Of a stretch of 64,000 nt of DNA, positions 6,739-53,784 are shown piece by piece. Positions within the stretch are counted from its first letter, which is position 1, and every line of letters begins with the position of its first letter. The DNA is from Methanobacteriota archaeon (GTDB lineage: Archaea; Halobacteriota; Bog-38; Methanoflorentales; Methanoflorentaceae): the NCBI GenBank assembly GCA_963720465.1, contig OY970393.1:704001-768000 (forward strand), given 5' to 3'. The notes beneath the pieces are model-generated. The model did not search any database and was not told where the DNA came from. It worked only from the letters and a program-made list of their open reading frames with translations. A program made the position numbers and the translations under genes.

Positions 6739-6810
6739 GGTTATCTCGGAACATGTTAGCTGAATGCCTTTAAATTACTTCTAAGCATCTATGGGGGCCT
6801 GCTAAAGCAC

Positions 6811-6858
6811 TCGCCTTCGTACGGCGGAGGTCGCGGGTTCGAATCCGACCGAGCGCAT
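6811..6858 (+). mobile_element. tRNA-derived att-like site A (degenerate tRNA-Val 3' half) at the left edge of the accessory region
   Basis: TCGCC-TTCGTAC-GGCGG AGGTC GCGGG-TTCGAAT-CCGAC CGAGCGCA gives anticodon arm, T arm and acceptor 3' strand. No D arm. The upstream GCTAAAGC matches the sequence before the site at 25533. Confidence 0.75.
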
Positions 6859-6909
6859 TGATCTCTTTTTGCGAGGCTGAAGCGGTCGTCGGAAAAAGAA
6901 TTGCACAAA

Positions 6910-7401
6910 TCACGTGTCACGGGCTTCTTTTTCCTCCGAGGCAGGGGAGAATTCACTCTCGCTCATCAACTTCGCGCGATAGCGCTTCTCCGCTTCCTCC
7001 TCTACCTTAAACTGAAGCTCGAGGAAGTCAGTAATGACTTGCCCTGCTTGCGGGTCCCCGCTACAGATGTCAAATATTACCTCGTGTTCTCTCTGGATCT
7101 TTTCCCAGTCCTTAGCTTGCGCCTTTGCCGCTTCCACGAGCGGAAGGATTCCAACGCCCTTTGCCGCGATATATGCCAAAGCTCGGCCCTTAGCCACGTC
7201 TTGACTTTTCGTGGCATTGCGGACAAGAGATACTGCCTCCTCGAAGATTGTGACCACGTCACTCGGTCCTTCAAGGCGAATAGGGCTCAAGATAGGCGCT
7301 GCATTCTCGGCGTCTGCCTGACGCTGCGCTTGGCGCTTCTCCAGCCTGCTAATCTTCGATTCGTGTTGCTTTGTGCTAATCCTCGATCCATATTGGCTCA
7401 T
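6910..7401 (-). CDS. Hypothetical helical protein (mobile-element type)
   Basis: 163-aa ORF translationally coupled (ATGA overlap) to the upstream ORF. Confidence 0.6.
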   Translation of the reverse strand: MSQYGSRISTKQHESKISRLEKRQAQRQADAENAAPILSPIRLEGPSDVVTIFEEAVSLVRNATKSQDVAKGRALAYIAAKGVGILPLVEAAKAQAKDWEKIQREHEVIFDICSGDPQAGQVITDFLELQFKVEEEAEKRYRAKLMSESEFSPASEEKEARDT

Positions 7402-7703
7402 TTAGATTGCTCCTCGAGCGCGGCTATCCGCTGTCCTTGATTCGTGATCTCAACGACCCGGAGGCCGATTTCCACGGCCCGTAACTTGATTCTCAACTTG
7501 GCCTCAAGGGCCAGCAAAGAGCCATCGGCGTTTCGCGCCTCGGCGACGACCTCGTTGACGAGGCCGCGAAAATCTTCAGCAGTCTCAAGTTGACGCGCGG
7601 TTAGCCGTGTGTCAATACTTTTTTTCGTCAATCCCTGGGCCCGTTGCATCCGCTTGTATGCCTTGTTATATTCGCGACGTCGTTCGGGGTTTGCGTAGGG
7701 CAT
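7398..7703 (-). CDS. Hypothetical basic protein (virus/plasmid type)
   Basis: MPYANPERRREYNKAYKR N-terminus; GAGG upstream; operon-like packing. Confidence 0.6.
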   Translation of the reverse strand: MPYANPERRREYNKAYKRMQRAQGLTKKSIDTRLTARQLETAEDFRGLVNEVVAEARNADGSLLALEAKLRIKLRAVEIGLRVVEITNQGQRIAALEEQSK

Positions 7704-8259
7704 TTACTGATCGCCTCGCTCTGTTCTTACTCCTATTCTTTCAAAACACGCTCCTTCCAGACCGAGCCCTTGGACGTCGGTGGATCTCCACAAGGGAGGG
7801 ACAAGTTCGTCGATCGTAACCGACGTGGTATTCTTATGTTGTTGTAGCATGTTAACACCACTCATGGATTCAGCAAAGCGGGTATATATACCCCATGACG
7901 CGAAAACGCCATATTGGGCTCCGTTCATTTTTTTTATAAAAAACTGCTAACCACTGGGTCAACTGCTTCATGCACGCAGCCAAAACGACGTTGCGGGGGC
8001 GGCTTGTTCACCTTTTAAAAAAATGTGGCAATCTTAACCAACGGCCGAGCGGCACACTTTCGGCACGCGCTCAGGAGACATTCATTAGTCGCCGGTCGTT
8101 GATAACAATACTAAATGGCAGCACGATTCTTGGCACAGCATCTTCTGTGCAGAATTTGAAAGAAATTCAAATTAAACAAATAGCAAGGAATAACTAGACT
8201 GCATATTGTTATCAATTTGTCTAATTTACAATGCGCACTGGATCGTTACAGGTCTTCAA

Positions 8260-8796
8260 ATGAAGAAGGAAACTTCACAAGTCGCTGGCGAGCTCATCGA
8301 ACGCCTAGACTCCCACTTAGACGACGAGAGGATAGGCAACCCCTTTTTCCCTGAACGAGGGGTACAGCCTTTCCCACTCACGCCTAGCGGATTCAAGATC
8401 ATCCAACGCCTCGATTCCGACAAAAAAACGGCGTTCGTTGATGGCGGCAATCAAGAGATACTAGGAGCGCCCAACTTTTCTGTCCAACTCAACCGGGTCT
8501 ATTTTGGCGTTTGGAACGGAAACACAAGGATACCCGAAAGGTCCATCCCCAAGCGGGTCGAGTTCTTCGCAGCGACGTTCTCCGACTTTACCGAGGATTT
8601 GAAGAACATGACTATTCCAACGTTGGTCGTACACGGCGATGATGACCAGATAGTACCAATTCAAGCTGCGGCGTTGCGTACTGTTGAAATCGCGCCGCAG
8701 GCGACACTGAAGGTTTATCCGGGCGCACCGCACGGTCTGCCGACTGTCTGCCAAGATCAGTTGAACGCGGATCTGCTTGCCTTCATCAGGGCCTGA
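8260..8796 (+). pseudogene. Chimeric ORF: NurA-like nuclease N-terminus fused to a non-heme haloperoxidase (alpha/beta hydrolase) C-terminus
   Basis: [10 protein letters not shown]...FSVQLNRVY, then [39 protein letters not shown]. Confidence 0.7.
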
Positions 8797-8864
8797 TGAT
8801 ACTCAAGTACAAAGCGCTGAATTTTCACTTTTTTTCATTATTTTAGGAACACACATGCGCGGCG

Positions 8865-10064: not shown

Positions 10065-10260
10065 TTATCCCGCGTTCAGGTTCACGTCTTTCCAGCACTT
10101 CATGTTAACATCATCAAGCGTGCTCCGACATGGGATGTTTGTAATGTGACTAGTCAACGCTGGACACGCCGTGAGTAAGGATGTAGGCTCGATTTGACTG
10201 ATCCCAGCCGATTATATCGCCGTGTAGCTCGGCAAATTTTCTTAGATCTCCGAGAACGAA
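10065..10260 (-). pseudogene. Tyrosine recombinase C-terminal remnant (copy B)
   Basis: Manual translation FVLGDLRKFAELHGDIIGWDQSNRAYILTHGVSSVD*SHYKHP; homologous to the copies ending at 36648 and 44834. Confidence 0.9.
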
Positions 10261-10465
10261 AGCACGTGTTCCGTTTACCCCCCCTCATCTCCTAGCTCGT
10301 TATTTCTTTTTTCGATTTGCTTAGATTTTTGGGCCCGTTCACCAGCTGACGCAGAAGTCATAGAGTGACGGCCTTGGAGCTGCCGGTAGGACAGACTAAC
10401 TCGACTGCTAAACTATGCAGACCTGGACTCAGGAGACCATATCCTTCACTTGCTAAGAGTGGGGG

Positions 10466-11525: not shown

Positions 11526-11744
11526 TCAGCGGCACCAGCAGCACCCGCACGTTCGCCGACCTCCGCTGAGCTCGTAGTCAGTGTACAGCGGGCAGCCCGG
11601 GCAATTACACCCTTGCATCTCTGGGTTTAATTCACTCGAGCTCATGGAGCAAAACACGCCACCCACGAGGCTGTTCTTGATAAACGTGAGACAGCTCTTG
11701 CAGATGCACTTTGCTTTTGTCTCTGCGTTCAAAGGAACTTTCAT
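11526..11744 (-). CDS. DUF2769-like Cys-rich small protein
   Basis: CICKSC..GVFC..GCNCPGCPLYTDYELSGG; GGAGGTGA Shine-Dalgarno upstream. Confidence 0.7.
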   Translation of the reverse strand: MKVPLNAETKAKCICKSCLTFIKNSLVGGVFCSMSSSELNPEMQGCNCPGCPLYTDYELSGGRRTCGCCWCR

Positions 11745-11814
11745 GTAGGAATCACCTCCGTCACGCTTTTCAAGCACACTGGATGCTATGGCCTAAAAAT
11801 TCTTTCGCATTTGC

Positions 11815-15599: not shown

Positions 15600-15851
15600 A
15601 TGATTCAAAATGGACTAATCTTAACTGGGACCGATGCGGAGATACTGAGCCAGGCACTTTTAGAAATGAAAACAAAAGCCTATGCCGAGTCCGAGACTAG
15701 TCTAGACGATACCCAAGCGCTTACAGCGCTCGTCTCGTGTGCGGAGAAAGGAGGGCAAGAGAAGGAAGAGCATCACCCGTATCGTAACCTCCTAAGCAAG
15801 CGCCTCGTCTTAGGCACTCTTGTCGGCAGGGCTAGCGCGGAAGAAAAATGA
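15600..15851 (+). CDS. Hypothetical protein; paralog of 39702-39863
   Basis: GGAGGGAG Shine-Dalgarno; LILTGTDAEILSQALLEMKTK..SLDDTQAL. Confidence 0.6.
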   Translation: MIQNGLILTGTDAEILSQALLEMKTKAYAESETSLDDTQALTALVSCAEKGGQEKEEHHPYRNLLSKRLVLGTLVGRASAEEK

Positions 15852-17077: not shown

Positions 17078-17199
17078 TGCGTTTCAACCTCCTCATTAGT
17101 TCGGTGATGCAAGACGTGGACGATGGCTTAATGGTTCCCATTTGGCTGCGCGGTGATGTGCTGCGATGCACGGCCTATGTATAAACGACTGACCCGCGG

Positions 17200-17420: not shown

Positions 17421-18560
17421 ATGGTAACCAGCACATCATCTGATTTCAGCCAACTACCCGTCTTGCAGGAAATCTACCAAGGTACAATCAGGGCGCACCA
17501 CGCAAAGGCGGGATACGACTACCCGACAATCCGCCTTCCGTTCACGTTCTCAGGGCTTATAGGGCTGCCGACGTGCATCTACCAAAGCGTTCACGAAGGG
17601 GCGCTTGCGTTCCTTGTCGTTATCTCATCGGGTTCTCGACGCGGACGCGACAACTCAGTTTCAAACGCTGACCAACGCCTTCACACGGCGGAGGTCGGGA
17701 GTTCAAATCTCCCCGGGCCCATCTTATTTTACCAATCGGACGCGGTAATGATGGCGGACGACGAAGAAGAAAAGTTGCCAACTTCCAAAAAGTTGCCAAC
17801 TTCTGAAGGCGGCGAAGAAACAAGGCAGAAGGAAAACCCGAAACAGTCATCGTCGATTATGGCGGCGGGATTATCGTTCATCACAGACTGCCCGACGGGA
17901 GTCTCGATGTAGGCCATGAATTTGACGATGCCGAGCTGGTTCCAGACGGAGCCATTCCCGATGAAGACGAGCGGTGCATAAAGACGGTCGACATTGACAC
18001 GTTAATAGCCATTCAAGATATTTTAGAGGCAGATAAAAAACCAATTTTCGGCGATGAGGGCGATGCAAAACCGCGTGCGAGCGGCACTTCAGGCGAGTTC
18101 ATACTTCACTTCTTTCAATCTGAACTGACCAATTTCGTGGCGGGTCGAAAAGTTGGCCTCGCTAAAAAGTCTACGGACTGGATTGACCGGGCATCAAACT
18201 TGCTGTGGGAATCGACAAAAGGCGAGGTATCGAGCCGCACGCTAACAGCACTGCGTGAACAAGTTCTTGCTAAATACAAATCTGCAGATTCACATTCTAA
18301 AGTCCTCAACTTCGCTGTTAGCTTTCTAAAGTTTTTGGCGAAAACAAAAATGGAGCCGCGATACGCATCCTTCGACGCATACTTGGAAATGCCCAAAGCG
18401 GTGAAAGAGCGGAAAAGCATAACGAGCCGAATCGTCACGAAAGACGACATCGAAAACATTCAGATATATCAAACAGGCTGAAAATAAGGGAAAAATTGAC
18501 TCTAAACGGTCAGCTCAGTATTCAGCTTTTATCACTTTGGCGCATTCACCGGTCAGCAGT
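17421..18560 (+). mobile_element. Split-type integrase module C: N-domain, att (17676-17721) and truncated tyrosine recombinase
   Basis: AHHAKAGYDYPTIRLP N-domain reads in frame through the tRNA-Val 3' half (HTAEVGSSNLPGPI). Then GLAKKSTDWIDRA..KERKSITSRIVTKDD..GAFTGQ, truncated. Confidence 0.85.
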
Positions 18561-24984: not shown

Positions 24985-25298
24985 TGTAAAACCTCGTAGT
25001 TACTCATAATGATGCCGGTAATGTATAGCTCGGAGCTTTAAGCATTGGGTGTATCATGCACCGCGCTGGAGCTGAGTATGGCTTGAAACCGCAGGAATAT
25101 TGTTTCGTATCGAATAGGGAAGCGTATGCCACGTCCGGCATTGAGGTTTAAGCGTGAACAGCCAAACTCCCTTTGCGAAACGCTTTGCGTACTCATTTGT
25201 GCTTGGTCGCAGAAGGCTAATCATAACGATTAAGGTGCAGCGACGACTTTGCACGTGTTATGCTAGCCACTGAACATTACCGATGCTACGATGTTACG

Positions 25299-25562
25299 AT
25301 GCCAAACCACGAGCTGTTGGAAGTCCATCACTCCAAAATCTCGCTTCACCACGCAAAAGCAGATTATACCTACCCAACGATACGATTACCACATACATTC
25401 TCAGCGCTTGCAGGACTATCGACGCAAATCTTTCAAACTGTGCACAAAGGAGCGCTTGTCTTTCTTGTGGTCGTGTCATCTGCAAACGTTTCCAGAAACA
25501 CTTTCGAGCGATCTAAAAACAGCGGTGCTTGCGCTAAAGCCTCCGTCTTCACACGGCGTTAA
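25299..25562 (+). mobile_element. Integrase N-domain D ending at a truncated att core (25543-25558)
   Basis: HHSKISLHHAKADYTYPTIRLPH..GALVFLVVV..SVFTRR*; CCGTCTTCACACGGCG|TTAATTT. Confidence 0.85.
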
Positions 25563-26925: not shown

Positions 26926-27182
26926 ATGCAATCGATCTGCACGCATAAGATAAGCATCCAAAGCTCAAAGCCATCTCATGCCTGCCCCATTGTCAGGCAC
27001 CCACCTGAGTTTGGCGAACTGGCGGGAACACGCGCAGAGATCTATCAAACAAGCTATGACGATGGGATTGCTTTTTTAGTGAAGATCATCGATCGTTCTA
27101 AAAAGAAGCTCAGCAAGGGCTCCAATTTCGAAAAGGAGCCTTCACACTGCTGAGGTCGCCGATTCGAATCCGGCCGAGCCCA
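26926..27182 (+). mobile_element. Integrase N-domain E plus att (27138-27182)
   Basis: HKISIQSSKPSHACPIV..EIYQTSYDDGIAFLVKI; GCCTTCACACTGCTGAGGTCGCCGATTCGAATCCGGCCGAGCCCA; closely similar to 43540-43795. Confidence 0.85.
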
Positions 27183-28283: not shown

Positions 28284-28560
28284 TTGAACGAAACGGAAAG
28301 CTGGGTCTGTCTCACGGCTTATTAGCGTAGTGTGCCCAGCAAGATTATGTTGCCAACGGAGTTAGATTATGAGGTCAACGTTGCCCCATACTGCATATGT
28401 CCTCCACGTGCTCTGGCAGCGGATGCCGATAATTCGTCCGCGCTACCCCCCGTCCCAGTGCGTGAGAAGATAGGCGCGGTGCGACTCATTCCGCCCGATG
28501 AGGTCACCGTGATGCTCGGCAATTTCTCGTAGATCTGCTGTGACAAAGTAGCGGCGCGCT

Positions 28561-31559: not shown

Positions 31560-32064
31560 AGTTGTGTTACCTCCTTTTCGTTACAAGGTGGCAAAAGGCG
31601 CCATCTATTTAAAGCCATATATTGCTTGGCACTTTTTGTAATAAAACTGGCAGGAAGTAAGTACTCACAATCCTGGGGTGACTGCCAGAACATAGTTACA
31701 ATAGGGGATAAGCGTCACGATGCAGCTATGGTTAGCAGGTTTTGCTCCTTACGGCTGCCGGTTTGTGTTGAGACCAATCCACGCTGGCCTCGCAATGCAT
31801 ATAGACGACACACGCTCACAAAATCAAGGAATTTCTGACTCTCTACCATCTTCTCTCGCGTACAGCCAGCATAGTGTGTCGCCGTAGCAAATTGCATCGC
31901 ATCTGGAACTCGTTTGTCCGTGTGCTCGTCAATAGCTTCTGGCCGTGGCAAACGTCTGTCGCTCCCCGCAAATCACAACAATTAAGTGTCGGTATCCATT
32001 CTGCACTCCTATGTTACTTGCTAATTATGATTCAAACAACCTCGTTGGATTTACAAAGGGCGAA

Positions 32065-32289
32065 ATGGGCCTTTTGGAGACTTATCGCAGCAAAATCTCT
32101 CTTCATCGCGCAAAAGCGGGTTATAGCTATCCTTTGATCCGACTGCCGCACATGTTCTCTCTGCTTGCGGGGTTACCCACAAGAATCTATCAGACAGTTT
32201 ACGACGGAGCACTAGCCTTTCTCGTGCTTGTTTCACCTCAAGAAAAGACCTCAGAAAGTTTCAAATCCTCCGTCTTCACACGGCGTTAA
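32065..32289 (+). mobile_element. Integrase N-domain F ending at a truncated att core (32270-32285)
   Basis: YRSKISLHRAKAGYSYPLIRLPH..SSVFTRR*; same junction as copy D. Confidence 0.85.
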
Positions 32290-33550: not shown

Positions 33551-33580
33551 TCGTCGAAGATCGATAGCGAGACGCGGTCA

Positions 33581-33613
33581 GAAAATGCCTCTAAAAACGC
33601 TAAATCCTCCGTC
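33581..33613 (+). mobile_element. N-domain 3' end G, broken at the start of the att core
   Basis: GAAAATGCCTCTAAAAACGCTAAATCCTCCGTC resembles the AAATCCTCCGTC end of copy F and the TCTAAAAAC..GCTAAA end of copy D. Confidence 0.5.
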
Positions 33614-36116: not shown

Positions 36117-36249
36117 ATGAGTCGCCTGATTATAATAAAAAATTATATATAATAATATATATATAATTAGTTGCTTTAAAGCTTTTCGATGCCAACGCAC
36201 CGCACTATGAGCTTTTACAAAAATTTAAAACGCGTAATAGTGAGAAGAG

Positions 36250-36648
36250 CGTTGGTTCCGAAAAGCCAGTGCTGCAGGTCGAATCCTCCTAAGACAAAAT
36301 CCGAATGGAAAACTACGTACCTTTGCACCCACAGGTCGTTTCAGCTATTGAAGCTATGCTCGGCGACCGCAAGAACGAAGACCGCGCAGTTGGATATAAC
36401 AGCTTCCAAATGTGGATGAAGCGCCAAGAAATCCCTATGAGTCACTTTGAAGGCATTTTTTGCCAAGCGACTTGCGGAAATTCGCGGAGCAGCACGGCGA
36501 CACAATCGAATGGGAGCAGTCTAATCGAAAGTACGTGCTCACTCACGGCGTCGGAGGGGTAGATTGGAGCCATTACAAGCACCCTCTTCCCGAATCGGTG
36601 CATGATATTTATATGAAGTATTGGGGAGACGTGAGCTTGAAAACCTAA
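36250..36648 (+). pseudogene. Tyrosine recombinase C-terminal remnant (copy H)
   Basis: DKIRMENYVPLHP..DLRKFAEQHGD..WEQSNRKYVLTHGVGGVDWSHYKHP. Confidence 0.9.
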
Positions 36649-43539: not shown

Positions 43540-44834
43540 ATGCAACCGATCTGCACGCATAAGATAAGCATCCAAAGCTCAAAGCCATCGCATGCCTACC
43601 CCATTATCGGGCTCCCTCGTGAGTTCCGCGAACTGGCTGGTGCAACCGCAGAGATCTATCAAACAAGCTATGACATGGAATCGCTTTCTTAGTGAAGATC
43701 GTCGATCGTTCTAAAAGGAAGCCCATCAAGGGCTCCAATTCAGGAAAGGAGCCTTCACACGGCGGAGGTCGCCGGTTCGAATCCGGCCGAGGCCATCGTT
43801 CTTTTTGGGATTTAGAAGAAGCAGCAGTCTCCATCGAGTTTCAAGATTCTGGGTGCAAGTTGTCTACTTCGAGCGAAAAGTTGTCTACTCCGCCTGTAGA
43901 TGGTCACGCCATCATTAGCAACATTATTACTTGATTTTAAGATCGGCAAACTATGTAGCTACACAGAAGCACGTGCAATAGGTTTGGCTCGGAAATCTGT
44001 CGATTGGATCAATCGCGCTTCAAAGATCTTCTAGCGAGCTACACACAGAAAGATCACTAAGGTTTCAATGGATCGTCTTCGGTCTTATGTGTTAGAGAAA
44101 TACCAGAGCTCGTGGTCAAAGAGTAAGATTCTAACTTTCGCAAAAGCATTTTTGGCATATCTCACGAAGACGCGGCTTGATACCTCGTATCAAGCTTTCA
44201 GCATCTTCCTTGAGCTGCCCAAAGTGGTCAAAGAGCGAGAGAATGTGACAAGCAGGATTGTCACTAAAAAAGACGTAGAGCGGATTCTTGACCATATACA
44301 TCGCGCAGAGTGTCACGGAATTATTAGCACGTCGAGAGCGGAGCAGTACACGGCATTCACTGTTTTTGGCGCATTCACAGGCCAGCGAAGCATGGCAACG
44401 ATGATGAAGCTCCCGTTGGCCAATTGGGCGAGGCCTTACGGGCTCCGAAACCAGTGCTGCAAATAGAGCCGTCTCAAGACAAGATTCGCATGGAACACTA
44501 TGTTCCATTGCACCCACAGGTTATTGAAACTCTTCAACCACTGCTCGACGGGCGGCATGATGATGAGCTGATGTTCCGCCACGGTTCGTTCTGGATGTGG
44601 GCCAAACGGCAGCGAATCCTCATGTCGCAGTTCAAAGGCCATTTCGTGCTCGGCGATCTTCGCAAGTTTTGCGAGCAGCATGGCGACGCCATCGGCTAGG
44701 ATCAGTCGAACCGCGCATATATTATGACGCACGGGGTGAGCGGCATCGATTGGAAGCACTATAAGCATCCGCTTCCTGAGAACGTGTATGACGTGTATAT
44801 AAAGCATTGGCAAAATACCCAGCTAGGCAACTAA
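43540..44834 (+). mobile_element. Full-length but disrupted integrase module I: N-domain, att (43751-43795) and tyrosine recombinase
   Basis: GAFTGQR (Arg), DKIR (Lys), DLRKF, MTHG and WKHY (Tyr); several stops and frameshifts. Confidence 0.9.
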
Positions 44835-46201: not shown

Positions 46202-46841
46202 AGGATCTCTTTTCTCGGAAATCCTACGCGGCTCTGATACTGGGACCAAACCAGGATTTGAGAGCGATGGATACGTCAAAGATGCTCAGCCTCCGTCTTT
46301 ATAATTCGGGTCTGGGTCATTCCCCGTTCGAAAATGCCATCGATGCAGTCTCCCACTTGGGTCACGTTTTTCCCGACGGGCCCGCGCCGAGGCGCTCCGC
46401 GCTGCACAGCTTGCAGTCAAAGCGAAGTACCCTGATCCCTACTTCTGGGGGGTGTTCATCTGTCAGGGTGATCCCGCTCCACTCTCGTAAGAGGATGATC
46501 AAGCGACAAGCCTATTTTTCAGACCGAATGAAAACGATCCATATACAGGTAGATCACGTGCCCGGGTGCGAGACAAATTAGCCAACCGCGTTGGAAAGTT
46601 GATCTGACCATGTGCGTTGATCAAGATCCTTTATACGGCGTCTCGCAGAAGGAGCGAGTAAACTTAGTACTTGGCTGAAGAATGTATTGGCTAAAATACG
46701 TAGACGGATTCTGCTCACTTGGGTTAGACGTTGCATGTGCACCAACAAAGGAGAAAAACGCATCAGGTCATGTTCTCGAGCACAACTAGCAGCTGGACTA
46801 GTAAACAATTTGAATAAAAAAAGCGGGTTAAGGAGGTTAAT

Positions 46842-48263
46842 ATGACCAATAAGTTCCGCAAGGAGACAGATAGTTTAGGTGAAGTTAACGTACCTTCTGA
46901 CAAGTTGTGGGGGGCGCAAACACAACGTTCGTTGGAGCATTTCAGTATCGGCGGCGACTTAATGCCAAGAGAAATGATTGAATCCTACGCTATATTAAAA
47001 AAGGCAGCGGCTATAGTGAATTTCCAGCTCGGCCAGCTGACTGAGGACCGCCGGGATTTGATAGTCCAAGTGTGTGATGAAATTCTAGCCGGTCAACATC
47101 AGGATCAGTTTCCTCTTTATGTGTGGATGACTGGAAGCGGGACTCATTTCAACATGAATGTGAATGAAGTAATTTCCAATCGCTGCTCACAGTTAACGGG
47201 AAATCCGCTGGGCAGTAAAATGCCAGTGCATCCCAATGATCATGTTAATAGGTCCCAGTCTTCAAATGACTCATTTCCATCTGCCATGCATGTCGCCGCA
47301 GTAAAAAACATAAATCAACGATTGATACCGTCCGTGAAACATTTACGTGATTCATTGCACGCCAAGGCAGAAGAATGGAAGAAGATTGTAAAGGTTGGTC
47401 GTACCCATATGCAGGATGCTACTCCCATCACTTTGGGACAGGAATTTTCTGGTTATGCGGGTCTGTTAGATGGTAATCTAGAACGTTTAGAGAATAACAT
47501 GCAAGACGTGTATCATTTGGCTTTGGGAGGCACTGCTGTCGGGACGGGAATTAATGCCCCTCCGGGATTTGATAAAAAAGTGGCAGCTGAAATCGCAAGA
47601 CAAACTGGCCTTCCCTTTATAACCGCGCCCAACAAATTCGCCGTTCAAGGTTCTCATGATGCTCTGGTTATGCTGAGCGGCAGCCTAAAAACCCTGGCAA
47701 TCTCTCTATTTAAAATTGCTAATGATATTCGTATCTTAAGTTCTGGGCCGCGTTGTGGGTTAAATGAACTCAATATTCCATCTAATGAGCCCGGGTCTTC
47801 CATCATGCCCGGGAAAGTCAATCCGTCCCAATGTGAAGCTCTGGCCATGGTGGCCATTCAGGTGATGGCTAATGATACGGCAGTGGCTTTTGGCGGAGGG
47901 GGTGGTTATCTGGAGATGAATGTCTATAAACCGCTGATAATCCACAACATCATGCATTCCGTCCGAATTATGGCAGACGCATGCCATAACTTCCGGTTGT
48001 TCCTGGTGGAGGGGACTGAAGCTAATAAAAAGCAGATCAACAACTTCTTAGAACGATCGCTCACGCTAGTGACTGCCCTTAGCCCTGTTATTGGTTATGA
48101 CAAAGCATCAAAAGTGGCCCACTATGCACTGGATAATGATCTAACGCTTAAGGAAGCTGTTTTGGAGCTTGAATGTCTTCAGGAGGACGAATTTGACCGT
48201 GTGGCCGATCCAGGGAAGATGGTGTATCCCCGTGTCGCTCAGTATGGAGGCGAGGATAAATAG
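46842..48263 (+). CDS. fumC: Class II fumarate hydratase
   Basis: [43 protein letters not shown]. Confidence 0.97.
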
Positions 48264-48337
48264 ACGGTGGAAACGGTCAAAAACGTTTATTCAATAATGA
48301 TGAGTCCTTTTTTCGCGTTGAAAATGGGGGTCTTATA

Positions 48338-50041
48338 GTGATTCATCGCCACGATGTTCTCATCATCGGAGGAGGATTAACTGGACTTCGAGCTGCCCTG
48401 CGTGTCTCAGATGCCGGTCTAAACGGGGCGGTAGTTTCCAAGGTCCATCCGTTGCGTTCTCATTCGGTGGCAGCCCAGGGTGGGATGAATGCCTCACTGG
48501 GGAATGTCAAAGGCGAGGACGGTACGAAGGACAGCTGGAAAAACCACGCTTATGATACGGTGAAAGGATCGGATTATCTAGCCGACCAGGACGCCGTTGA
48601 ACGCTTGTGTCGTGAGGCCCCTAGCGCCGTCATCGAACTGGAACACATGGGAACGGTGTGGTCAAGACTGGCAGACGGAAAAATTGCACAGCGCCCTTTC
48701 GGAGGGGCAGGATTTCCCAGAACGTGTTACGCAGCAGATCGCACCGGTCACAACGCGCTCCACACCCTCTACGAGCACCTATCGGGTCGGCAAATCCCGG
48801 TCTATGAAGAGTTTTTTGTAACATCACTAGTAACTAAAGACGGACGTTGCATTGGATGCACGGCTTTGGAGCTCATGACCGGCCAGGTCCACGGCTTCCT
48901 CGCAAAGGCAGTCCTTATGGCCTCTGGCGGCTTTGGCCGGATATTCAACAAGTCGACAAACGCGTTAATTAACACCGGAGACGGTCCGGCACTAGCGCTC
49001 CGTGCGGGTGCACTACTCAAGGATATGGAGTTTGTCCAGTTCCATCCTACCACCCTCTATGGGACGAACATTTTAATCACAGAAGGGGCCCGCGGCGAAG
49101 GAGGTATCCTCCTCAACCAGAATGGAGAGCGGTTCATGGAACGCTACGCTCCCAATTCGGTTGACCTTGCCCCGCGTGATGTGGTGGCACGGTCTATCGA
49201 ACAGGAAATCGCAGAGGGAAGAGGTTATGATGGAGGTTATGTACACCTTGACCTGCGCCATCTGGGTGCTGATCGGATCACGGAACGGTTGCCAGGAATA
49301 AGGCAGATAGCCATGGATTTTGCGGGTGTCGATCCGATCCAAGATCCGGTACCAGTCCAGCCTGGTCAGCACTACTCAATGGGCGGTATTGATGCGGATA
49401 TCAACGGCGCAACCGCGCTTCCGGGTCTCTATGCTGCAGGTGAATGTGCCTGCATCAGTGTCCATGGGGCCAACCGGTTGGGTGGAAATTCTCTCGTGGA
49501 AACGGTGGTATTCGGACGGCTAGTGGCCGAGAAGATCATTGAGGATGTAGAGGAGATGACCCTTGCCAATGATGAGCCGGTAAAAGCCGCCATAAAGAGT
49601 ACAAATGATAGAATCGAAGGAATACTTCGACGTGAAGGAGGAGAACCCGTCTTTAGGATTAAGGATATGATGACCAATACCATGTCCAACAAATTCGGAA
49701 TATTCCGTGAAAAACAGAAGATGCGGGAAGGTCTCGACGAGATTAAAAAAATACAGGAACAAGTTGGTCACGTTTCAGTCCAGAATAAGGAGCGCAAACT
49801 AAACCAGGCACTTATCAGGTTCTTAGAGCTGGAGGGAATGCTCCTGCTGGCTGAGGCAGTCGCGCGTGGTGCGCTTGCCCGGGAGGAGAGCCGAGGTTCC
49901 CACAAGAGGACCGATTATCCTGAACGTGACGATCTTAACTTCCTAAAACACACTCTGGTGGGATTGCGAGACGACGCAATACATGTTTCATATAAGCCCG
50001 TTACGTTAGGCGTGTTTGAGCCAAGGGAGCGCGTTTATTAA
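48338..50041 (+). CDS. sdhA: Succinate dehydrogenase/fumarate reductase flavoprotein
   Basis: GGGLTG, RSHSVAAQGG, QFHPT, TEGARGEG, HYSMGG, HGANRLGGNS. Confidence 0.95.
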   Translation: MIHRHDVLIIGGGLTGLRAALRVSDAGLNGAVVSKVHPLRSHSVAAQGGMNASLGNVKGEDGTKDSWKNHAYDTVKGSDYLADQDAVERLCREAPSAVIELEHMGTVWSRLADGKIAQRPFGGAGFPRTCYAADRTGHNALHTLYEHLSGRQIPVYEEFFVTSLVTKDGRCIGCTALELMTGQVHGFLAKAVLMASGGFGRIFNKSTNALINTGDGPALALRAGALLKDMEFVQFHPTTLYGTNILITEGARGEGGILLNQNGERFMERYAPNSVDLAPRDVVARSIEQEIAEGRGYDGGYVHLDLRHLGADRITERLPGIRQIAMDFAGVDPIQDPVPVQPGQHYSMGGIDADINGATALPGLYAAGECACISVHGANRLGGNSLVETVVFGRLVAEKIIEDVEEMTLANDEPVKAAIKSTNDRIEGILRREGGEPVFRIKDMMTNTMSNKFGIFREKQKMREGLDEIKKIQEQVGHVSVQNKERKLNQALIRFLELEGMLLLAEAVARGALAREESRGSHKRTDYPERDDLNFLKHTLVGLRDDAIHVSYKPVTLGVFEPRERVY

Positions 50042-50805
50042 TGAAACTCAAAGTGTACCGATACCATGAGGGAATGGCTGCGCCCCGTTACGATACCTTT
50101 CAGCTGGTGCCAAGTCCAGCAATGACGGTGTTAGAGGCTTTAGTCCAGTTCCAGGAAAAACTCGACGATTCGCTCGCATTTCGTTATTCCTGCCGTGGAG
50201 CAGTCTGTGGAACTTGTGCGATGTTAATCAACAGAGTCCCCCGGCTTGCGTGCCGTACCCAAGTGGAATCTCTCCTGAAGGGAAATCTCAAGGTCGCTAT
50301 TGCCCCATACCCGGCTATTGGGGAAACTGTGCCCTGGGACCCCGAAGAAGAGGTTTTAGTAGAGCCCCTCCCCCATTTGCCTGTAATTAGGGATCTCATT
50401 GTGGACATGGGCATATTTTTCCAGTACTACCGGTTCATAGCACCAGTCTTCCGACCATCGGATCCAGATCCTGAAAAGGAGCGAATTATGGATCCTGCTG
50501 CAGTTAAGAAGCTAGAGACGTATACCAACTGTGTTCTCTGTGCCGCTTGTCACGCGGCCTGTCCCGTTGTAGGACAAAATCCCGAATACCTTGGACCTGC
50601 TGCCCTAGCCAAACTCTACCGGTTCCACGTTGACCCTAGGGATGTTGATGGAGACTCAACACTAAAACGAGCAGATATCCCCAATGGGTGGTGGGCCTGT
50701 GACTTGTATGGGAACTGTAATCGGGTGTGTCCCAAAGGCGTTCCCCCGAGAACCGCTATCGAAAAAGCTGTGGCAGCACTAAACAAAGAAAAAAAAGAAG
50801 CTTAA
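50041..50805 (+). CDS. sdhB: Succinate dehydrogenase/fumarate reductase Fe-S subunit
   Basis: SCRGAVCGTC, CVLCAACHAACP, CDLYGNCNRVCPKG. Confidence 0.93.
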   Translation: MKLKVYRYHEGMAAPRYDTFQLVPSPAMTVLEALVQFQEKLDDSLAFRYSCRGAVCGTCAMLINRVPRLACRTQVESLLKGNLKVAIAPYPAIGETVPWDPEEEVLVEPLPHLPVIRDLIVDMGIFFQYYRFIAPVFRPSDPDPEKERIMDPAAVKKLETYTNCVLCAACHAACPVVGQNPEYLGPAALAKLYRFHVDPRDVDGDSTLKRADIPNGWWACDLYGNCNRVCPKGVPPRTAIEKAVAALNKEKKEA

Positions 50806-51081
50806 TAGACAAAATTTGTCCCAAAAAAGATCCTTTTCGAAATGGAATCTATCCTTATTTTCATTGATTTGGCAGGAAATCTGAAATGAAATAACGCGTA
50901 TGAAATGCCATCTTTTTGTTTATAATGCGGAAAGGAAGATCAAAAAATGAACCTTAAACCCGGCAGTAAGGGGAGGATATTCCAGATACCTACCGTGCTC
51001 TGTCTGCGGAGCAAAATCCTATCTGCATCCAGTTAGCAATGACAGAGTCTCCGCAAAAAGGGTGGACAAGGGGGGAAACCT

Positions 51082-52133
51082 GTGGAAAGGGATTTGACTT
51101 ATTACCGTCATCGAGCCAGGGAGATGCTCGCTCGCGTGTGTGGTGTTTACCCAGTGTGCGACGGTGACCCGGATCATCTATGCACCGGACAAAAATATGG
51201 AGCGCCTATCGGCTTAGGGGGCGCAGGACAGGCCAAGACATTTGAGGCAAACTATAGAGCCCTGCAACAGTACCGGCTGAAAATGCGGGTGATCAAGGCC
51301 CATCACGAACCAGAAATGTCCGTTTCAATCTTTGGGAAGGAGCTCGCCGCCCCGGTTATGGGGGCGGCCATCTCCGGCGTGAAAAACAACATGAATGATG
51401 CCATGCCCGAAGAAGAATTTTATTGGGGTCTGTTAAAGGGAGCTCAGGCGTTCGGGACTATCGGCATGGTGGGAAACACCCCTACCAGTCCCGAAGACTT
51501 GGGGGTCACCACCGTAGGGAAGAACGAGGGATGGGGAATCCCATTCTTCAAACCCCAGTCCCAGGATCGGTTAATTAAGCTCTTCCAGCTGGCAGAGAAA
51601 CTGGATGTGATTGCCATTGGCGTTGATCTGGAAGGTGCGGGGTCTACTTCTTGGATCACTCCCGAGAAAAGGGTTTACCGGAAAAGTGAGGATAATTTAA
51701 AGGAATTAGTAGAGTGCACCAGTAAACCCGTGATCTTCAAGGGTATTATGAGCACGGAAGACGCGGTTAAGGTGGTGGATTCCGGTGCCAGTGCATGTTA
51801 CGTATCTAATCACGGGGGCAGAGTCCTAGACTGCGGCCAGGGAGTGGCAGAGGTACTCCTGATATAGCAGAGGAGATTTCAGGAAAGATCCCTATACTGG
51901 CGGATGGAACGGTGCGAACGGGATTTGACGTCCTCAAGATCAGGGCGCTTGGCGCGGATGTAGCCCTGATCGGCCGGCCCCTCGCACAAGTGTGTATTGG
52001 TGGGGGATACATGGCCGTGAAGATGTATTTTGATTATGTTAAGGATGATCTTCGCCGAGCCATGCTATTGACAGGATGCGATACGCTCAAAGACGCAAAC
52101 ATGAGTATTTTGGATAGATTGGGGCATCTGTAA
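51082..52133 (+). pseudogene. FMN-dependent alpha-hydroxy-acid oxidase with one frameshift near 51860
   Basis: PVIFKGIM..VSNHGGRVLD / ILADGTVRTGFDVLK..GRP. Confidence 0.85.
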
Positions 52134-52424
52134 TCCAATATTCAAAGAACGTTTTGTTTCTTTGAAAGAATCTATTCCTGAGATGTGACTCGGACACAGT
52201 CTCGCTGTCCGGCTTATCAAAGACATTCGGACAACTTACCGTCGTCGTAACCGTTCAAACGAAACGGGCGTAAGGTGTAGCACAAAGTCGCAAAAAAAGC
52301 AGGCGCAATATAGATGCGTCCCGCAGCGGCTTTGATGGCGGGATGATGTAGTCAAGGTATTGCCAGTGAAAGGGTGGACAATCACCTCCTGTCCACTCTT
52401 TTGCATCGCTCAGCACGTGCCAAT

Positions 52425-52632
52425 TCAGAAATACCCTCTCCCACCGTCTATGAAAAAAATGGCGATGGTAGGTATGAACGTCTCAGGGAGGGCCGTACCG
52501 ATTGCAGCTAGTATATCCCACCACACTCTCCGAGAGCTTGAATTTGCGCCCGATCCACTCGATCCCGTTGGTGGAGAGATCACAGCTGATGAAGACGAGC
52601 AGAATGCTGATGAGGAAGAGTGCAATATTCAT
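52425..52632 (-). pseudogene. Na+/Ca2+ antiporter (CaCA) N-terminal fragment
   Basis: TNGIEWIGRKFKLSESVVG / ILAAIGTALPETFIP. Confidence 0.75.
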
Positions 52633-52801
52633 GCGTGCCCCTCTATGATGCAACCTCCAGTTAAATAGCTTTCTCGCCTCTGAACTGAAATTAGGAGCAG
52701 GAATGTAGACTAACGATGATTCGGCGGGCAAACTTGATAAAACGAGCAATACATGACTAGACTCTCGAAGTTGCGCAGAAATCTCTCTTGGAGAAGCAAA
52801 A

Positions 52802-53236
52802 ATGAAAAAACACGCAATCTTAGGAATCTGCGTGATCGCAGCGATCTTGATCGCCGGCTGTACGCAAAGTACGCAAAGCGGACAGACGGCAGGATTGGGA
52901 AATCATGTTATCAGCACTGCGAATCAGAACAACGTCACCGTCAAAAATTATCAGTTTAATCCTCAGTTCTTGACGATTCCGCAAGGAGCAAACGTGACGT
53001 GGATCAATCAGGATTCGTCGAGTGGTGCATACGGCGGATCAACTTCGATTCAGCATCAAATAACCTCAAATAATTCGGCGTTTGCACAGTCAGCGCCTCT
53101 TAACAACGGAGACAGTTACACGGTGCAGTTCAATCAAACCGGGACGTTCCCGTATCATTGCGCGATTCACACCTATATGACGGGAACGATCACCGTCGTC
53201 GCAAGGAACGTGACAACGACAACAGCGGCAATGTAA
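52802..53236 (+). CDS. Cupredoxin (plastocyanin/halocyanin-like) lipoprotein
   Basis: Lipobox LIAGC, FNP, VTWIN, H..YHCAIH.YM.GTI. Confidence 0.9.
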   Translation: MKKHAILGICVIAAILIAGCTQSTQSGQTAGLGNHVISTANQNNVTVKNYQFNPQFLTIPQGANVTWINQDSSSGAYGGSTSIQHQITSNNSAFAQSAPLNNGDSYTVQFNQTGTFPYHCAIHTYMTGTITVVARNVTTTTAAM

Positions 53237-53743
53237 AGAGATTAAGAAAGAAATGGTCGGATTAAGATTCGTCCCTCACGGCGGGGGTGTTAAGCGACGT
53301 CAGATGGCTCAAGTCTCTGGGATTCGATTCCTCGCCATAATCACGCAAATGGATGGTATTATGAGCACGCAAGACGCGCAATCATCGTCGAAAACGCTAT
53401 TGCTTGACGTATGTTGGATACGAACTGCAAGCGGAGATATTGATTAAGGAGGGCATAGGGGAGTCTGTTGACGGAACTATGCCACAATGCTATCATTTGA
53501 GACCACCACTAAGTGAAGCAGGGCAAAGGATAGGGTTGGTCAAGCATATATGATTGACCCGATGCGAGAGGACGTTTTTAGGACAATTTTACATGTTTTG
53601 AGAAGTGATGGCCGCGGCCACAACGCTGGTTGATTTTCAACTTTTACGGTTAGTAGTATCGTAACAAGAGAGCGCGGCCAAAACAAATAGAAGCAATATG
53701 TGGCCGCTGCGAAGTCACGCCGCTTTTTCTTAAGGTTGCTCCT

Positions 53744-53756
53744 CGTCTTCACACGG
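53744..53756 (+). mobile_element. att core remnant J
   Basis: CGTCTTCACACGG is identical to the D and F cores. Confidence 0.45.
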
Positions 53757-53784
53757 TAGTGACACGTTTCGTATCCCTGCTGTC

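What the first reader, a model, noticed from the sequence alone, without database searches (positions are those of the whole stretch)
6800..53760. Co-oriented array of tRNA-Val-derived recombination sites and split-integrase parts partitioning about 47 kb of cargo, with no tRNA gene present
Seen: tRNA-Val(CAC)-derived sites at 6811, 17676, 25543, 27138, 32270, 43751 and 53744, plus an N-domain end at 33581, all on the + strand. Five sites are directly preceded by the same small ORF family. Tyrosine recombinase bodies (FTGQR/DKIR/DLRKF/THG/HY) lie at about 18.1, 36.3 and 44 kb, with one inverted at 10.1 kb. Unrelated cargo lies between them. Established: SSV1- and pTN3-type archaeal integrases carry attP inside int and are split on integration into a tRNA; tandem integration rebuilds intN-att-intC hybrids. 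Inference: this is a serially accreted and possibly reshufflable array in which any two direct att sites could excise the cargo between them, behaving like an integron. It appears detached from its parental tRNA, because the first site abuts the nth upstream region and has element-type sequence upstream.
Basis: partly seen in the sequence, partly recalled or inferred. Interest (0 to 1): 0.88.

Follow-up and report, generated by a model that had tools for sequence, protein, structure and literature searches.

The report
Decayed tandem array of integrase elements
This stretch of a peat-methanogen chromosome is a graveyard of mobile elements that inserted one after another into a leftover half of a valine tRNA gene, carried by a previously undescribed integrase family, and nothing shows that it still shuffles genes like an integron.

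Summary
The sites are real and non-random. There are four 45-nt copies of the tRNA-Val 3' half (6813, 17677, 27138, 43751), two anticodon-arm-only copies (25545, 32272) and two scraps (33580, 53745), all on the + strand. Five are directly preceded by one small-ORF family. No tRNA gene lies in the window. The true tRNA-Val(CAC) is 519 kb away on the other strand.

The recombinase bodies number five, not four: three on + and two on -. All are broken.

They belong to a family with no Pfam model. Its core is a lambda-Int/Cre-like two-domain fold. Its attP lies inside the reading frame, between a small N-terminal domain and the core, which is the SSV-type "suicidal" architecture, but it lacks the Pfam domain shared by all known suicidal integrases.

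The att half-site beside nth is conserved in at least four congeners. Each has different DNA to its right, and two have their own co-oriented arrays, so this is an old orphan integration hot spot rather than a recent detachment.

Serial accretion with hybrid intN-att-intC junctions is supported. Integron-like reshuffling is not: every resident integrase is dead, some sites are mutated, and cargo module borders do not match att sites.

I rate it a new variant of a known kind, of moderate interest.

The parts
6813..6857 (+). att1: degenerate 3' half of tRNA-Val (anticodon mutated to CGT, T-stem mismatched). It heads the variable region, 74 nt from the nth start codon.
   Evidence: It is 90% identical over 50 nt to the true tRNA-Val(CAC) 3' half. 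It is shared with G009, and homology ends right after it.
7405..8597 (.). Module paralogous, in inverted orientation, to the DNA lying about 2 kb downstream of the true tRNA-Val(CAC) gene, next to a large-terminase gene there. I read it as a proviral remnant.
   Evidence: It is 89.8% identical over 1199 nt to genome 189903-188709. TerL lies at genome 189906-191816. No TerL remnant is left in the window.
10117..10278 (-). Integrase-core scrap (residues about 244-297 of the 310-aa core), inverted, with 1 stop.
   Evidence: tblastn with 4 intact cores from this genome.
17421..17676 (+). Integrase N-part (small-ORF family). Its ORF runs in frame through att2 and 55 codons of integrase linker, to 17912.
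17677..17721 (+). att2: tRNA-Val(CAC) 3' half whose T-arm and acceptor differ from the host gene. ARAGORN's 'tRNA-Leu' is a false call on it.
17772..17802 (.). Two copies, 18 nt apart, of a 13-nt palindrome (AAGTTGCCAACTT) inside the linker coding region. Possibly a protein-binding site.
   Evidence: 6 matches in the genome against 0-3 in 5 shuffles. A second pair lies just downstream of tRNA-Val(TAC).
18086..18559 (+). Integrase-core remnant: core-binding domain up to the TGQR motif (residues 4-162), with 4 stops.
25260..25542 (+). Integrase N-part copy.
25545..25558 (+). Short att: anticodon stem-loop only, followed by a non-tRNA flank (TTAATTTAG...) shared with 32272 and with genome 1286513.
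   Evidence: (D10).
26926..27137 (+). Integrase N-part copy (second subfamily), 89% identical at DNA level to 43537-43805.
   Evidence: (D3, D4).
27138..27182 (+). att4: tRNA-Val 3' half with 2 core mismatches.
28396..28562 (-). Integrase-core scrap (residues about 243-298), inverted.
31945..32269 (+). Integrase N-part copy. This was the query for the exhaustive protein search.
32272..32285 (+). Short att (anticodon stem-loop only).
33580..33613 (+). 34-nt scrap of the element-side arm, ending in AAATCCTCCGTC.
   Evidence: (D8).
36170..36645 (+). Integrase-core remnant: catalytic domain (residues 150-310), with a stop and a frameshift. Together with the neighbouring propeller gene it is missing from the closest relative, G009.
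43540..43750 (+). Integrase N-part copy (second subfamily), frameshifted.
43751..43795 (+). att6: best-preserved tRNA-Val(CAC) 3' half.
43912..44825 (+). Near-complete integrase core (residues 3-308), broken by one frameshift and two stops.
46805..53487 (+). Cargo module: fumarase, fumarate-reductase-like flavoprotein and Fe-S subunits, FMN dehydrogenase and cupredoxin. Its similarity to relatives is discordant with that of the flank.
   Evidence: Pfam. It is 97.8% identical to G002 (nth flank 93%) and 84% to G011.
53745..53756 (+). 12-nt att-core scrap.

Best explanation
The window holds the decayed remains of several integrative elements, plus a proviral scrap. They inserted one after another, by site-specific recombination, into an orphan copy of the 3' half of tRNA-Val that sits next to nth.

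The elements use a tyrosine integrase whose attP (about 45 nt, identical to the tRNA-Val 3' half) lies inside the int reading frame. It sits between a small N-terminal domain of about 85 aa and a long acidic linker, which is followed by a lambda-Int/Cre-like core-binding plus catalytic core of about 300 aa.

Each integration splits int. The core ends up just right of one att copy. The N-part ends up just left of the next att copy. All att copies point the same way.

Repeated insertion into any surviving att copy builds a co-oriented array with hybrid N-part/att/core junctions. A junction that rebuilt a working gene would excise, so only mismatched or broken junctions persist. Deletions, local inversions and exchange of modules have since eroded the array.

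Shown: the sites, their orientation, the N-parts, the broken cores, the conserved orphan att, the different content in relatives, and the reading-frame continuity across att.

Inferred: the order of events, that integration (rather than rearrangement) brought every unit here, and the selective loss of working junctions.
For: Sites and parts:
- The sites are far above chance and all on +.
- 5 of 5 N-part copies are on +, each 30-60 nt upstream of an att.
- N-part/att/core junctions lie at 17421-18559 and 43540-44825.

Architecture:
- In this genome a 508-codon frame runs out of tRNA-Val(TAC) into an intact core.
- In relatives, 10 loci have tRNA-Val or tRNA-Asp directly upstream of the core. 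In 7 of them the core's frame is open from inside the tRNA.
- The N-part ORF continues in frame through att into the linker or core in window 17421-17912, in loci L160, L107 and L164/L162, and in proteins P0126, P0131, P0181 and P0256.
- In L024 a 3.1-kb element has its core and its own N-part in the same frame relative to att. The neighbouring element's N-part is in another frame. The two atts are 95% identical over 44 nt.

Fold:
- The core model has pLDDT 81.5. Its best PDB matches are lambda Int, Tn1549 Int, Cre and XerH (E 3e-4 to 3e-3, probability 1.0).

Hot spot:
- The left flank is syntenic in 12 of 12 same-genus genomes, and synteny stops at att1.
- G011 and G010 have an att at the same place, followed by their own co-oriented att, N-part and core sets.
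- G009 shares the degenerate att and diverges right after it.

Clustering:
- 5 of 28 genome-wide N-parts lie within 26 kb (simulated P = 0.006). 22 of 28 are on + (P = 0.004).

Precedent:
- The literature describes split int genes and hybrid junctions for suicidal integrases (PMC7253208 and PMC8371274, passages read).
Against: - No full-length N-part + core gene was found anywhere. That is 0 of 55 core ORFs in relatives' loci and 0 of 97 N-part sites in 79 metagenome loci.
- The best 150 of 216 N-part protein clusters are all 65-254 aa long.
- No homologue is longer than 543 aa (the tool itself calls this weak evidence).
- There is no match in viral contigs, phage records or plasmid records.
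- Junction frames are mixed. By my count over, about 8 are in frame and 7 out of frame. That is not significantly above the one-third expected if the small ORF were a separate gene.
- Two core scraps are inverted.
- The cargo includes conserved metabolic genes (fumarase, fumarate reductase, and a GAPDH just outside the array), with no replication, capsid or transfer genes.
- The one module with clear borders ends at 46805 and 53487, not at att sites.
- The whole 6.8-64 kb region is scrambled relative to every congener examined. Rearrangement, not only integration, has therefore shaped it.
Confidence: 0.68

Rival explanations
1. Active, integron-like cassette system. An integrase supplied in trans, from one of the intact core genes elsewhere in the chromosome, still recombines any two direct att copies. 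Cargo blocks would then be excised, reinserted and reordered.
For: - The att copies are co-oriented.
- Three core ORFs without stops exist elsewhere in the genome: genome 1560186-1558660, 2103999-2105225 and 2298613-2297501. A fourth, at 329679-330953, carries one in-frame TGA at its end.
- The core alone has both the core-binding and catalytic domains.
- Content at the nth-att junction differs in every congener.
- The fumarase module is more similar to G002 (97.8%) than the flank is (93%).
Against: - All 5 cores in the window are broken.
- att1 and att4 carry core mutations, and two sites lack the whole T-arm.
- Module borders do not coincide with att.
- Cargo genes lie on both strands, with no common promoter logic.
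- Each unit carries its own int remnant, unlike integron cassettes.
- The relatives compared are different species (79-96% flank identity), so the differences need not be recent.
Confidence: 0.1
2. Mosaic assembled mainly by rearrangement. Dispersed att, int and other repeats act as substrates for homologous or integrase-mediated inversions and translocations, as described for Thermococcus. These brought att-bearing junctions and ordinary chromosomal segments together. Few of the units would have integrated where they now lie.
For: - The window is non-syntenic with all 10 congeners searched, and its pieces are scattered over their genomes.
- Two core scraps are inverted.
- A 1.2-kb repeat, 90% identical, lies in inverted orientation next to the true tRNA-Val(CAC) 519 kb away.
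- tRNA-Val(CAC) and the nth-att are on opposite strands in G000 but on the same strand in G011.
- Conserved metabolic genes lie between the att sites.
Against: - Random rearrangement would not leave 7 of 7 att copies and 5 of 5 N-parts co-oriented.
- G011 and G010 have co-oriented arrays at the same junction.
- The N-part/att/core order at the junctions is exactly what tandem integration predicts.
Confidence: 0.2
3. The small ORF is not part of the integrase. It is a separate small gene, for example a regulator or directionality factor, whose 3' end overlaps attP. The integrase would start just after att, at the recurrent (M/V)xDDE position. That would be a classical type II module, for which tandem arrays are already known.
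For: - No fused full-length gene exists in any database searched.
- Gene callers start many homologues at M/V-x-D-D right after att.
- N-part reading frames across att vary: three frames are used.
- The frame through the tRNA half is open anyway, so 'open from the tRNA' is weak evidence.
Against: - Eight independent in-frame read-throughs from the N-part into the linker or core use three different att frames, each matched downstream.
- The cognate halves of the L024 element share a frame, while the neighbour's N-part does not.
- The (M/V)xDDE start is not conserved in all homologues.
- In the tRNA-Asp subfamily, the same 317-nt segment is read in one frame both after an N-part and before a core.
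Confidence: 0.22
4. Assembly artefact that concatenated repeat-bounded contigs.
For: The genome is a metagenome-derived single contig. The four runs that hold 97-98% of the sampled words of 17001-27000 come from one study and may be the source itself.
Against: - The repeats are short (45-270 nt) and diverged, with 63-89% identity between copies. That is too dissimilar to collapse or chimerise an assembly.
- Relatives show the same kind of array at the same junction.
Confidence: 0.02

Closest known systems
Type I ('suicidal') archaeal integrases of SSV1, pTN3 and pT26-2 (She et al. classification; Badel et al. 2020, PMC7253208; review PMC8371274)
   Same: - attP is a 40-50 nt piece of a tRNA gene lying inside the int reading frame.
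- Integration leaves int(C) beside the tRNA or att, and int(N) at the far end of the element.
- Hybrid junctions occur, and att is read in different frames in different subfamilies.
   Different: - There is no PF16795 match (0 of 44 members), only weak PF00589 hits (13 of 44).
- There is no sequence match to any solved structure.
- The hosts are mesophilic peat and wetland methanogen-lineage genomes, not hyperthermophiles.
- The N-part is a discrete small domain, joined to the core by a linker of up to about 200 aa.
- Copy number is very high: 28 N-parts and about 18 core remnants in 2.3 Mb.
- Tandem arrays are present, whereas Badel et al. report 0 tandem integrations among 73 suicidal integrases (passages read).
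Tandem integrated elements at tRNA genes with classical (type II) integrases in archaea and bacteria (cited in PMC8371274 as Krupovic et al. 2010 and 2019; I did not read those papers)
   Same: Repeated integration at one att gives direct att repeats separating unrelated elements. tRNA gene fragments mark old events (PMC9897764, passages read).
   Different: Here the array is headed by an orphan half-tRNA conserved across a genus, not by the functional tRNA gene. The integrase also appears to be split by integration.
Integrons
   Same: A row of co-oriented recombination sites with unrelated genes between them.
   Different: - There is no resident intI/attI/Pc platform.
- The sites are tRNA halves, not attC.
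- Each unit brought its own integrase.
- Cargo lies on both strands and includes multi-gene blocks.
Int-pTN3-driven chromosomal inversions in Thermococcus ('Flipping chromosomes', PMC5495485; seen as a search listing and as cited in the review)
   Same: Many dispersed copies of integrase-related repeats sit in a genome whose gene order is scrambled relative to close relatives.
   Different: No inversion end point was mapped to an att here. The link is an inference only.
Lambda integrase (three-part layout: arm-binding N domain, core-binding domain, catalytic domain)
   Same: The core model matches lambda Int 75-356, bound to core sites, best. A separate small N-terminal domain precedes it.
   Different: The fold of the N domain is unassigned: the best Foldseek hit has E = 0.8. 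attP lies between the coding regions of the N domain and the core.

Membership tests
Type I (suicidal, SSV-type) archaeal integrase | attP lies inside the int open reading frame | tested here: met
   The N-part ORF reads in frame through att into the linker or core in window 17421-17912, in L160, L107 and L164, and in P0126, P0131, P0181 and P0256. The cognate halves of the L024 element share the frame. Caveat: about 7 other junctions are out of frame.
Type I (suicidal, SSV-type) archaeal integrase | Integration leaves int(C) next to the tRNA gene and int(N)-att at the other end | tested here: met
   tRNA-Val(TAC) is followed by an intact core in one open frame. tRNA-Val or tRNA-Asp lies directly upstream of the core in 10 relatives' loci. 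N-part-att pairs occur at 5 window sites.
Type I (suicidal, SSV-type) archaeal integrase | [quoted passage not shown] | tested here: not met
   0 of 44 members match PF16795 at E <= 0.1, and 0 of 3 at E <= 1.
Type I (suicidal, SSV-type) archaeal integrase | An intact full-length gene exists on the free (episomal) form | tested here: not met
   None was found. Absence from these collections does not prove absence in nature.
Tyrosine recombinase superfamily | Core-binding plus catalytic two-domain fold | tested here: met
   The AlphaFold model has pLDDT 81.5. Foldseek probability is 1.0 to lambda Int, Tn1549 Int, Cre and XerH.
Tyrosine recombinase superfamily | Conserved catalytic residues (Arg, Lys, Arg, His/Trp, Tyr) | tested here: inconclusive
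   R162, K194, R254, H277 and Y287 are invariant in 44 sequences. Their assignment to catalytic roles is by analogy and from recall; I did not superpose them.
Tyrosine recombinase superfamily | Match to Pfam Phage_integrase (PF00589) at the curated cut-off | tested here: not met
   13 of 44 match weakly. The best E is 0.0014, and all are below the 27.1-bit cut-off.
Integron | Resident integrase with adjacent attI and promoter, followed by promoterless cassettes ending in attC | tested here: not met
   There is no intact integrase in the window. The sites are tRNA-Val halves. Cargo ORFs lie on both strands.
tRNA gene (ARAGORN call at 17630-17721) | Complete cloverleaf recognised by covariance model | tested here: not met
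   Rfam finds no tRNA match in the window, even at E <= 1. The 5' part of the call lies in N-part coding sequence.

The most novel reading that the evidence does not exclude
The integrase core left behind after integration is a complete core-binding plus catalytic recombinase. Integration removes only its N domain, so it is not dead. Expressed from the three uninterrupted core genes in this chromosome, it could still recombine the roughly 20 dispersed tRNA-Val half-sites. The att arrays would then be exchangeable cargo blocks, and the core would drive the extreme gene-order scrambling seen in this methanogen family. That would be a second, independent origin of the 'suicidal' gene layout, outside the PF16795 superfamily, working as a genome-wide shuffling system.
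Probability: 0.13. Interest if true: 0.8.

Novelty: new variant of a known kind. Interest (0 to 1): 0.5.

Why it matters
Suicidal (self-splitting) integrases are described as a single-origin group (PF16795), found mainly in hyperthermophiles and never in tandem (PMC7253208 and PMC8371274, passages read).

This locus and its relatives point to a Pfam-less integrase family with the same gene layout in mesophilic peat methanogen lineages. In the 301 genomes sampled across the phylum, it was present in 23 of 23 genomes of the window's family other than G000. In most of those, all 7 scored candidates matched, out of up to 85 first-look candidates. In other families it was found in 20 of 277 genomes, usually with 1-3 matches. 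In the window's family it forms tandem arrays.

If confirmed, this would widen the host range and the origin story of this architecture. It would also offer natural material on how hybrid integrase genes arise. And it identifies a major source of genome plasticity in methane-producing archaea of peatlands, including movement of metabolic modules such as fumarase and fumarate reductase.

Tried and rejected
No read evidence exists either way.
- The fold of the N domain could not be assigned. The model has pLDDT 62.9 overall and about 80 for residues 50-96 (strand-strand-helix-strand-strand). Foldseek gave nothing significant: best E = 0.8, with MazE only at rank 8 (E = 1.6). The protein atlas gave no usable hit. 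Pfam gave none. My first guess of an AbrB/MazE-like fold is therefore unsupported.
- Full-length integrase hunt. 'Longer' homologue searches found nothing. Of the five regions I fetched for the longest open frames in relatives, only two frames passed my script's filter (L183, 532 codons; L187, 489 codons), and neither holds the N-part motif.
- Viral contigs, phage records and plasmid records hold no relative of the core.
- I considered that site 6813 derives from tRNA-Thr(CGT) because of its anticodon. I rejected this: the real tRNA-Thr(CGT) is unrelated in sequence.
- I looked for an orphan T-arm that would mark an insertion splitting the short att sites. None was found. The short att sites with shared non-tRNA right flanks remain unexplained.
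- I considered a single inversion between the two 1.2-kb repeats (window 7405-8597 and genome 188709-189903) as the cause of detachment. I rejected it as a sufficient explanation. Either arrangement leaves one att cluster inverted relative to its head, and the nth-att junction predates the split from G011 and G010.
- Supplementary tables of PMC7253208 and PMC8371274 (lists of integrases, including Methanosarcinales ones) could not be seen. They may bear on whether relatives of this family were already catalogued.
- Searches for prior descriptions. 'Methanoflorens' + 'integrase' gave 0 papers. Two broader searches returned only the papers cited here.
- She et al. 2001/2002 are cited from recall and from the passages of the two reviews. 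I did not read them.

Full report
SETTING. The window is positions 704001-768000 of a single-contig genome of 2,313,764 bp and 51.7% G+C. Related loci come from metagenome-assembled archaea that their records label Methanobacteriota, Euryarchaeota, Methanomicrobia or Halobacteriota, from bog, fen and peat.

OBSERVATION: THE SITES.
- The 20-nt core of the tRNA-Val(CAC) anticodon arm and variable loop occurs four times in the window with at most 3 mismatches. All four are on the + strand, at 6813, 17677, 27138 and 43751. The expectation is 0.01.
- The element-type 12-mer GTCTTCACACGG occurs three more times, again all on +, at 25545, 32272 and 53745. The expectation is 0.02.
- The four long sites continue through the T-arm and acceptor strand to the discriminator, 45 nt in all.
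- The sites at 25545 and 32272 keep only the anticodon stem-loop. They then share a non-tRNA flank with each other and with a third copy at genome 1286513.
- 33580-33613 and 53745-53756 are scraps.

OBSERVATION: N-PARTS, tRNA GENES AND CORES.
- tblastn shows that five sites are immediately preceded by members of one small-ORF family, all on +.
- The window has no tRNA gene. ARAGORN's 'tRNA-Leu' at 17630-17721 is a false call laid over att 17677 and the coding sequence before it. Rfam finds no tRNA even at E <= 1.
- With intron-aware ARAGORN on the whole genome, the real tRNA-Val(CAC) is at 191891-191964 on the minus strand. tRNA-Val(GAC) is at 61928 (+) and tRNA-Val(TAC) at 1560128 (-).
- Using four intact cores from the same genome as queries, the window holds five integrase-core remnants:
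  - 10278-10117 (-);
  - 18086-18559 (+; residues 4-162, four stops);
  - 28562-28396 (-);
  - 36170-36645 (+; residues 150-310);
  - 43912-44825 (+; residues 3-308, one frameshift and two stops).

THE INTEGRASE FAMILY.
- The conserved core of about 310 aa has no Pfam family. Of 44 members scanned, 13 give sub-threshold hits to PF00589. None hits PF16795, the domain that the review PMC8371274 assigns to all known suicidal families.
- Neither a single sequence nor a 44-sequence profile finds any solved structure by sequence.
- An AlphaFold model (pLDDT 81.5) matches two-domain tyrosine recombinases: lambda Int bound to core sites, Tn1549 Int, Cre and XerH, at probability 1.0. The 'body' is therefore a complete core-binding plus catalytic unit.
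- R162, K194, R254, H277 and Y287 are invariant. Reading them as the catalytic set is by analogy.
- The family is large in metagenomes: 666 proteins at E <= 1e-5.
- In a sample of 301 genomes of the phylum (G000 included), it occurs in 23 of 23 genomes of the window's own family other than G000. In most of these, all seven scored candidates matched, out of up to 85 first-look candidates. Elsewhere it occurs in 20 of 277 genomes, usually with one to three matches.
- No relative was found in viral contigs, phage records or plasmid records.

IS THE SMALL ORF THE INTEGRASE N-TERMINUS? EVIDENCE FOR.
- At tRNA-Val(TAC) in this genome, a 508-codon frame runs from inside the tRNA into an intact core.
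- Ten loci of relatives have tRNA-Val or tRNA-Asp directly upstream of the core, and seven have the frame open from inside the tRNA.
- The window's own ORF 17421-17912 runs from the N domain through att into 55 codons of the conserved acidic linker.
- Metagenome loci L160, L107 and L164/L162 carry single ORFs of 308-390 codons. These run from the N domain through att and the whole linker into the first helices of the core-binding domain.
- Proteins P0126, P0131, P0181 and P0256 do the same.
- Three different att reading frames are used, and each is matched downstream.
- In locus L024 a compact 3.1-kb element lies between two 44-nt att copies. Its core and its own N-part are in the same frame relative to att, while the neighbouring element's N-part is in another frame.
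- In the tRNA-Asp subfamily, a 317-nt segment is read in the same frame after an N domain and before a core.

IS THE SMALL ORF THE INTEGRASE N-TERMINUS? EVIDENCE AGAINST.
- No complete fused gene exists in any collection searched: 0 of 55 core ORFs and 0 of 97 N-part sites.
- The best 150 of 216 N-part clusters are all 254 aa or shorter.
- The 'longer' searches found nothing.
- About half of the junctions I could score are out of frame.
- Badel et al. (PMC7253208, passages read) describe the same picture for known suicidal integrases: att translated in different frames, hybrid junctions, and the expectation that a junction rebuilding an intact gene excises and is not seen.
- I put the split-gene architecture at about 75%.

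GENOME-WIDE CONTEXT.
- The genome has 28 N-part copies, 22 of them on + (binomial P = 0.004), and about 18 core remnants.
- The N-parts form clusters:
  - four next to tRNA-Val(GAC) at 62-86 kb;
  - four at 173-183 kb near tRNA-Val(CAC);
  - three around tRNA-Asp;
  - five in the window, the densest (P = 0.006 for five within 26 kb);
  - others elsewhere.
- Element-type or orphan att copies number about 18.
- The window's array is therefore one instance of a genome-wide and family-wide phenomenon, not a singular device.

COMPARATIVE EVIDENCE FOR AN ORPHAN-att HOT SPOT.
- The left flank up to nth is syntenic in 12 of 12 same-genus genomes, at 79-96% identity. Homology stops at att1.
- G011 and G010 have a well-preserved att at the same place, with an element-type left arm. 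G009, the closest relative (96% flank identity), shares the degenerate G000 version. In all four, the sequences diverge immediately after the tRNA 3' end.
- To the right, G011 carries a large-terminase gene, two further atts, an intact core and two N-parts, with the atts, core and N-parts all co-oriented. G010 carries an N-part, an att, a terminase gene and a core. G006 and G002 also have a terminase gene there.
- G000 has lost the terminase gene. It keeps a 1.2-kb neighbouring module (7405-8597) whose paralogue, 90% identical and inverted, lies beside a terminase gene just downstream of the real tRNA-Val(CAC).
- At that real tRNA gene, synteny with five relatives runs from upstream exactly to the tRNA 3' end, then stops. 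That is the classical signature of a tRNA integration site.
- The nth-att junction is therefore an ancient half-tRNA that has kept acting, or at least marking, as an insertion point across the genus. The 'detachment' is old.
- The tRNA gene and the nth-att lie on opposite strands in G000 but on the same strand in G011. At least one inversion separates the two genomes, but I could not place its end points.

CARGO.
- Between the sites lie genes for hemerythrin, DUF1638, SnoaL, LemA plus DUF2207, two SAM methyltransferases, acetolactate decarboxylase, a binding protein, hydrolases, FlpD plus an FrhB-like protein, a PQQ-type propeller, fasciclin, cyclophilin, fumarase, fumarate-reductase-like A and B subunits, an FMN dehydrogenase and a cupredoxin. 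They lie on both strands.
- No replication, capsid or transfer genes were seen in the window.
- Everything from 6.8 kb to the window's end is non-syntenic with ten congeners. Pieces map to scattered places.
- The fumarase module 46805-53487 is 97.8% identical to G002, whose flank is only 93% identical, and 84% identical to G011. It has the same left border in both. It behaves as an exchanged module, but its borders are not at att sites.
- Relative to G009, the core remnant at 36.2 kb plus the propeller gene is an insertion or deletion.

MECHANISM AND VERDICT.
- The best-supported reading is serial site-specific integration into surviving att copies. This gives co-oriented att repeats and hybrid junctions. 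Persistence of only defective junctions, and later erosion by deletion, local inversion and module exchange, would follow.
- Active integron-like shuffling is not excluded, because three uninterrupted core genes remain elsewhere and the core is a complete recombinase fold. Nothing observed requires it, however, and the direct test with reads could not be run.
- Relative to the literature I could read, two points are new. First, the integrase family has a suicidal-type layout without PF16795, in mesophilic methanogen lineages, hugely expanded in one family. Second, these elements occur in tandem arrays, which Badel et al. report as never observed among 73 suicidal integrases.

LIMITS.
- The relatives are different species, not strains.
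- The order of events is inferred.
- The N domain's fold is unassigned.
- Supplementary tables of the two key papers were closed.

Noticed in passing
window 17772-17802; also genome 1560011 region: Two copies, 18 nt apart, of a 13-nt palindrome (AAGTTGCCAACTT) lie just right of att2, inside the linker coding region. A similar pair lies right after tRNA-Val(TAC). In homologues the spot is conserved as the repeated peptide EKL..S. It may be an arm-type binding site.
   Followed up: partly
window 25545 and 32272; genome 1286513; second group at genome 72134, 178030 and 556151: 'Short' att sites have an N-part, then only the anticodon stem-loop, then a non-tRNA flank. That flank is conserved within each of two groups (76-79% over 160-400 nt for the first). 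No orphan T-arm was found that would mark a split site. The origin is unexplained.
   Followed up: partly
genome 189906-191816 (L101 9906-11816): An intact large-terminase gene (phrog_7579, E = 1.8e-62; Pfam Terminase_6N and 6C) lies 75 nt from the 3' end of the real tRNA-Val(CAC). Homologues (50-62% identity) sit next to the nth-att in G011, G006, G002 and G010. A head-tailed provirus family therefore uses the same att.
   Followed up: partly
window 46805-53487: The fumarase/fumarate-reductase/FMN-dehydrogenase/cupredoxin block is 97.8% identical to G002, although the conserved flank is 93% identical. It is only 84% identical to G011. This suggests recent exchange of a metabolic module between congeners.
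   Followed up: partly
genome 1277699-1278313; also 62372-61947 and 347542-347147: A further N-part subfamily reads antisense into the tRNA or att from its 3' side. At genome 1277965, two N-parts converge on one att from both sides.
   Followed up: no
window 38290-38547 (-), 11526-11777 (-), 15600-15851 (+), 25954-26289 (-): These small ORF families are present in 15, 10 (DUF2769), 9 and 5 copies in the genome. Several recur in relatives' variable regions. They are likely further mobile-element genes.
   Followed up: no
window 22065-22482 versus 60911-61328; 24221-24338 versus 52323-52442: There are two pairs of inverted repeats. One has arms of 176-229 nt, 75-79% complementary, 38 kb apart. 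The other has arms of 25-58 nt, 78-89% complementary, 28 kb apart. The first pair covers a 4-copy small ORF family.
   Followed up: no
window 37077-38096: Seven 120-nt tandem units lie inside the 421-aa PQQ/BamB-type beta-propeller gene (36922-38187, -). These are the blades of the propeller, not a separate repeat element.
   Followed up: yes
window 17200-17352 (-) and L024 5096-5389 (-): A 50-aa ORF, divergently placed just upstream of the N-part gene, has a close counterpart at the same position in the compact element of L024. It has no Pfam match, and may be a regulator of the element.
   Followed up: no
genome 2276458-2276562 and relatives' loci L041, L075, L082: ARAGORN calls an intron-containing 'tRNA-Stop(tta)' in a Lys-Trp-His tRNA cluster. 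In L041 and L075 an integrase core lies just downstream of it. The call was not checked with another tool.
   Followed up: no
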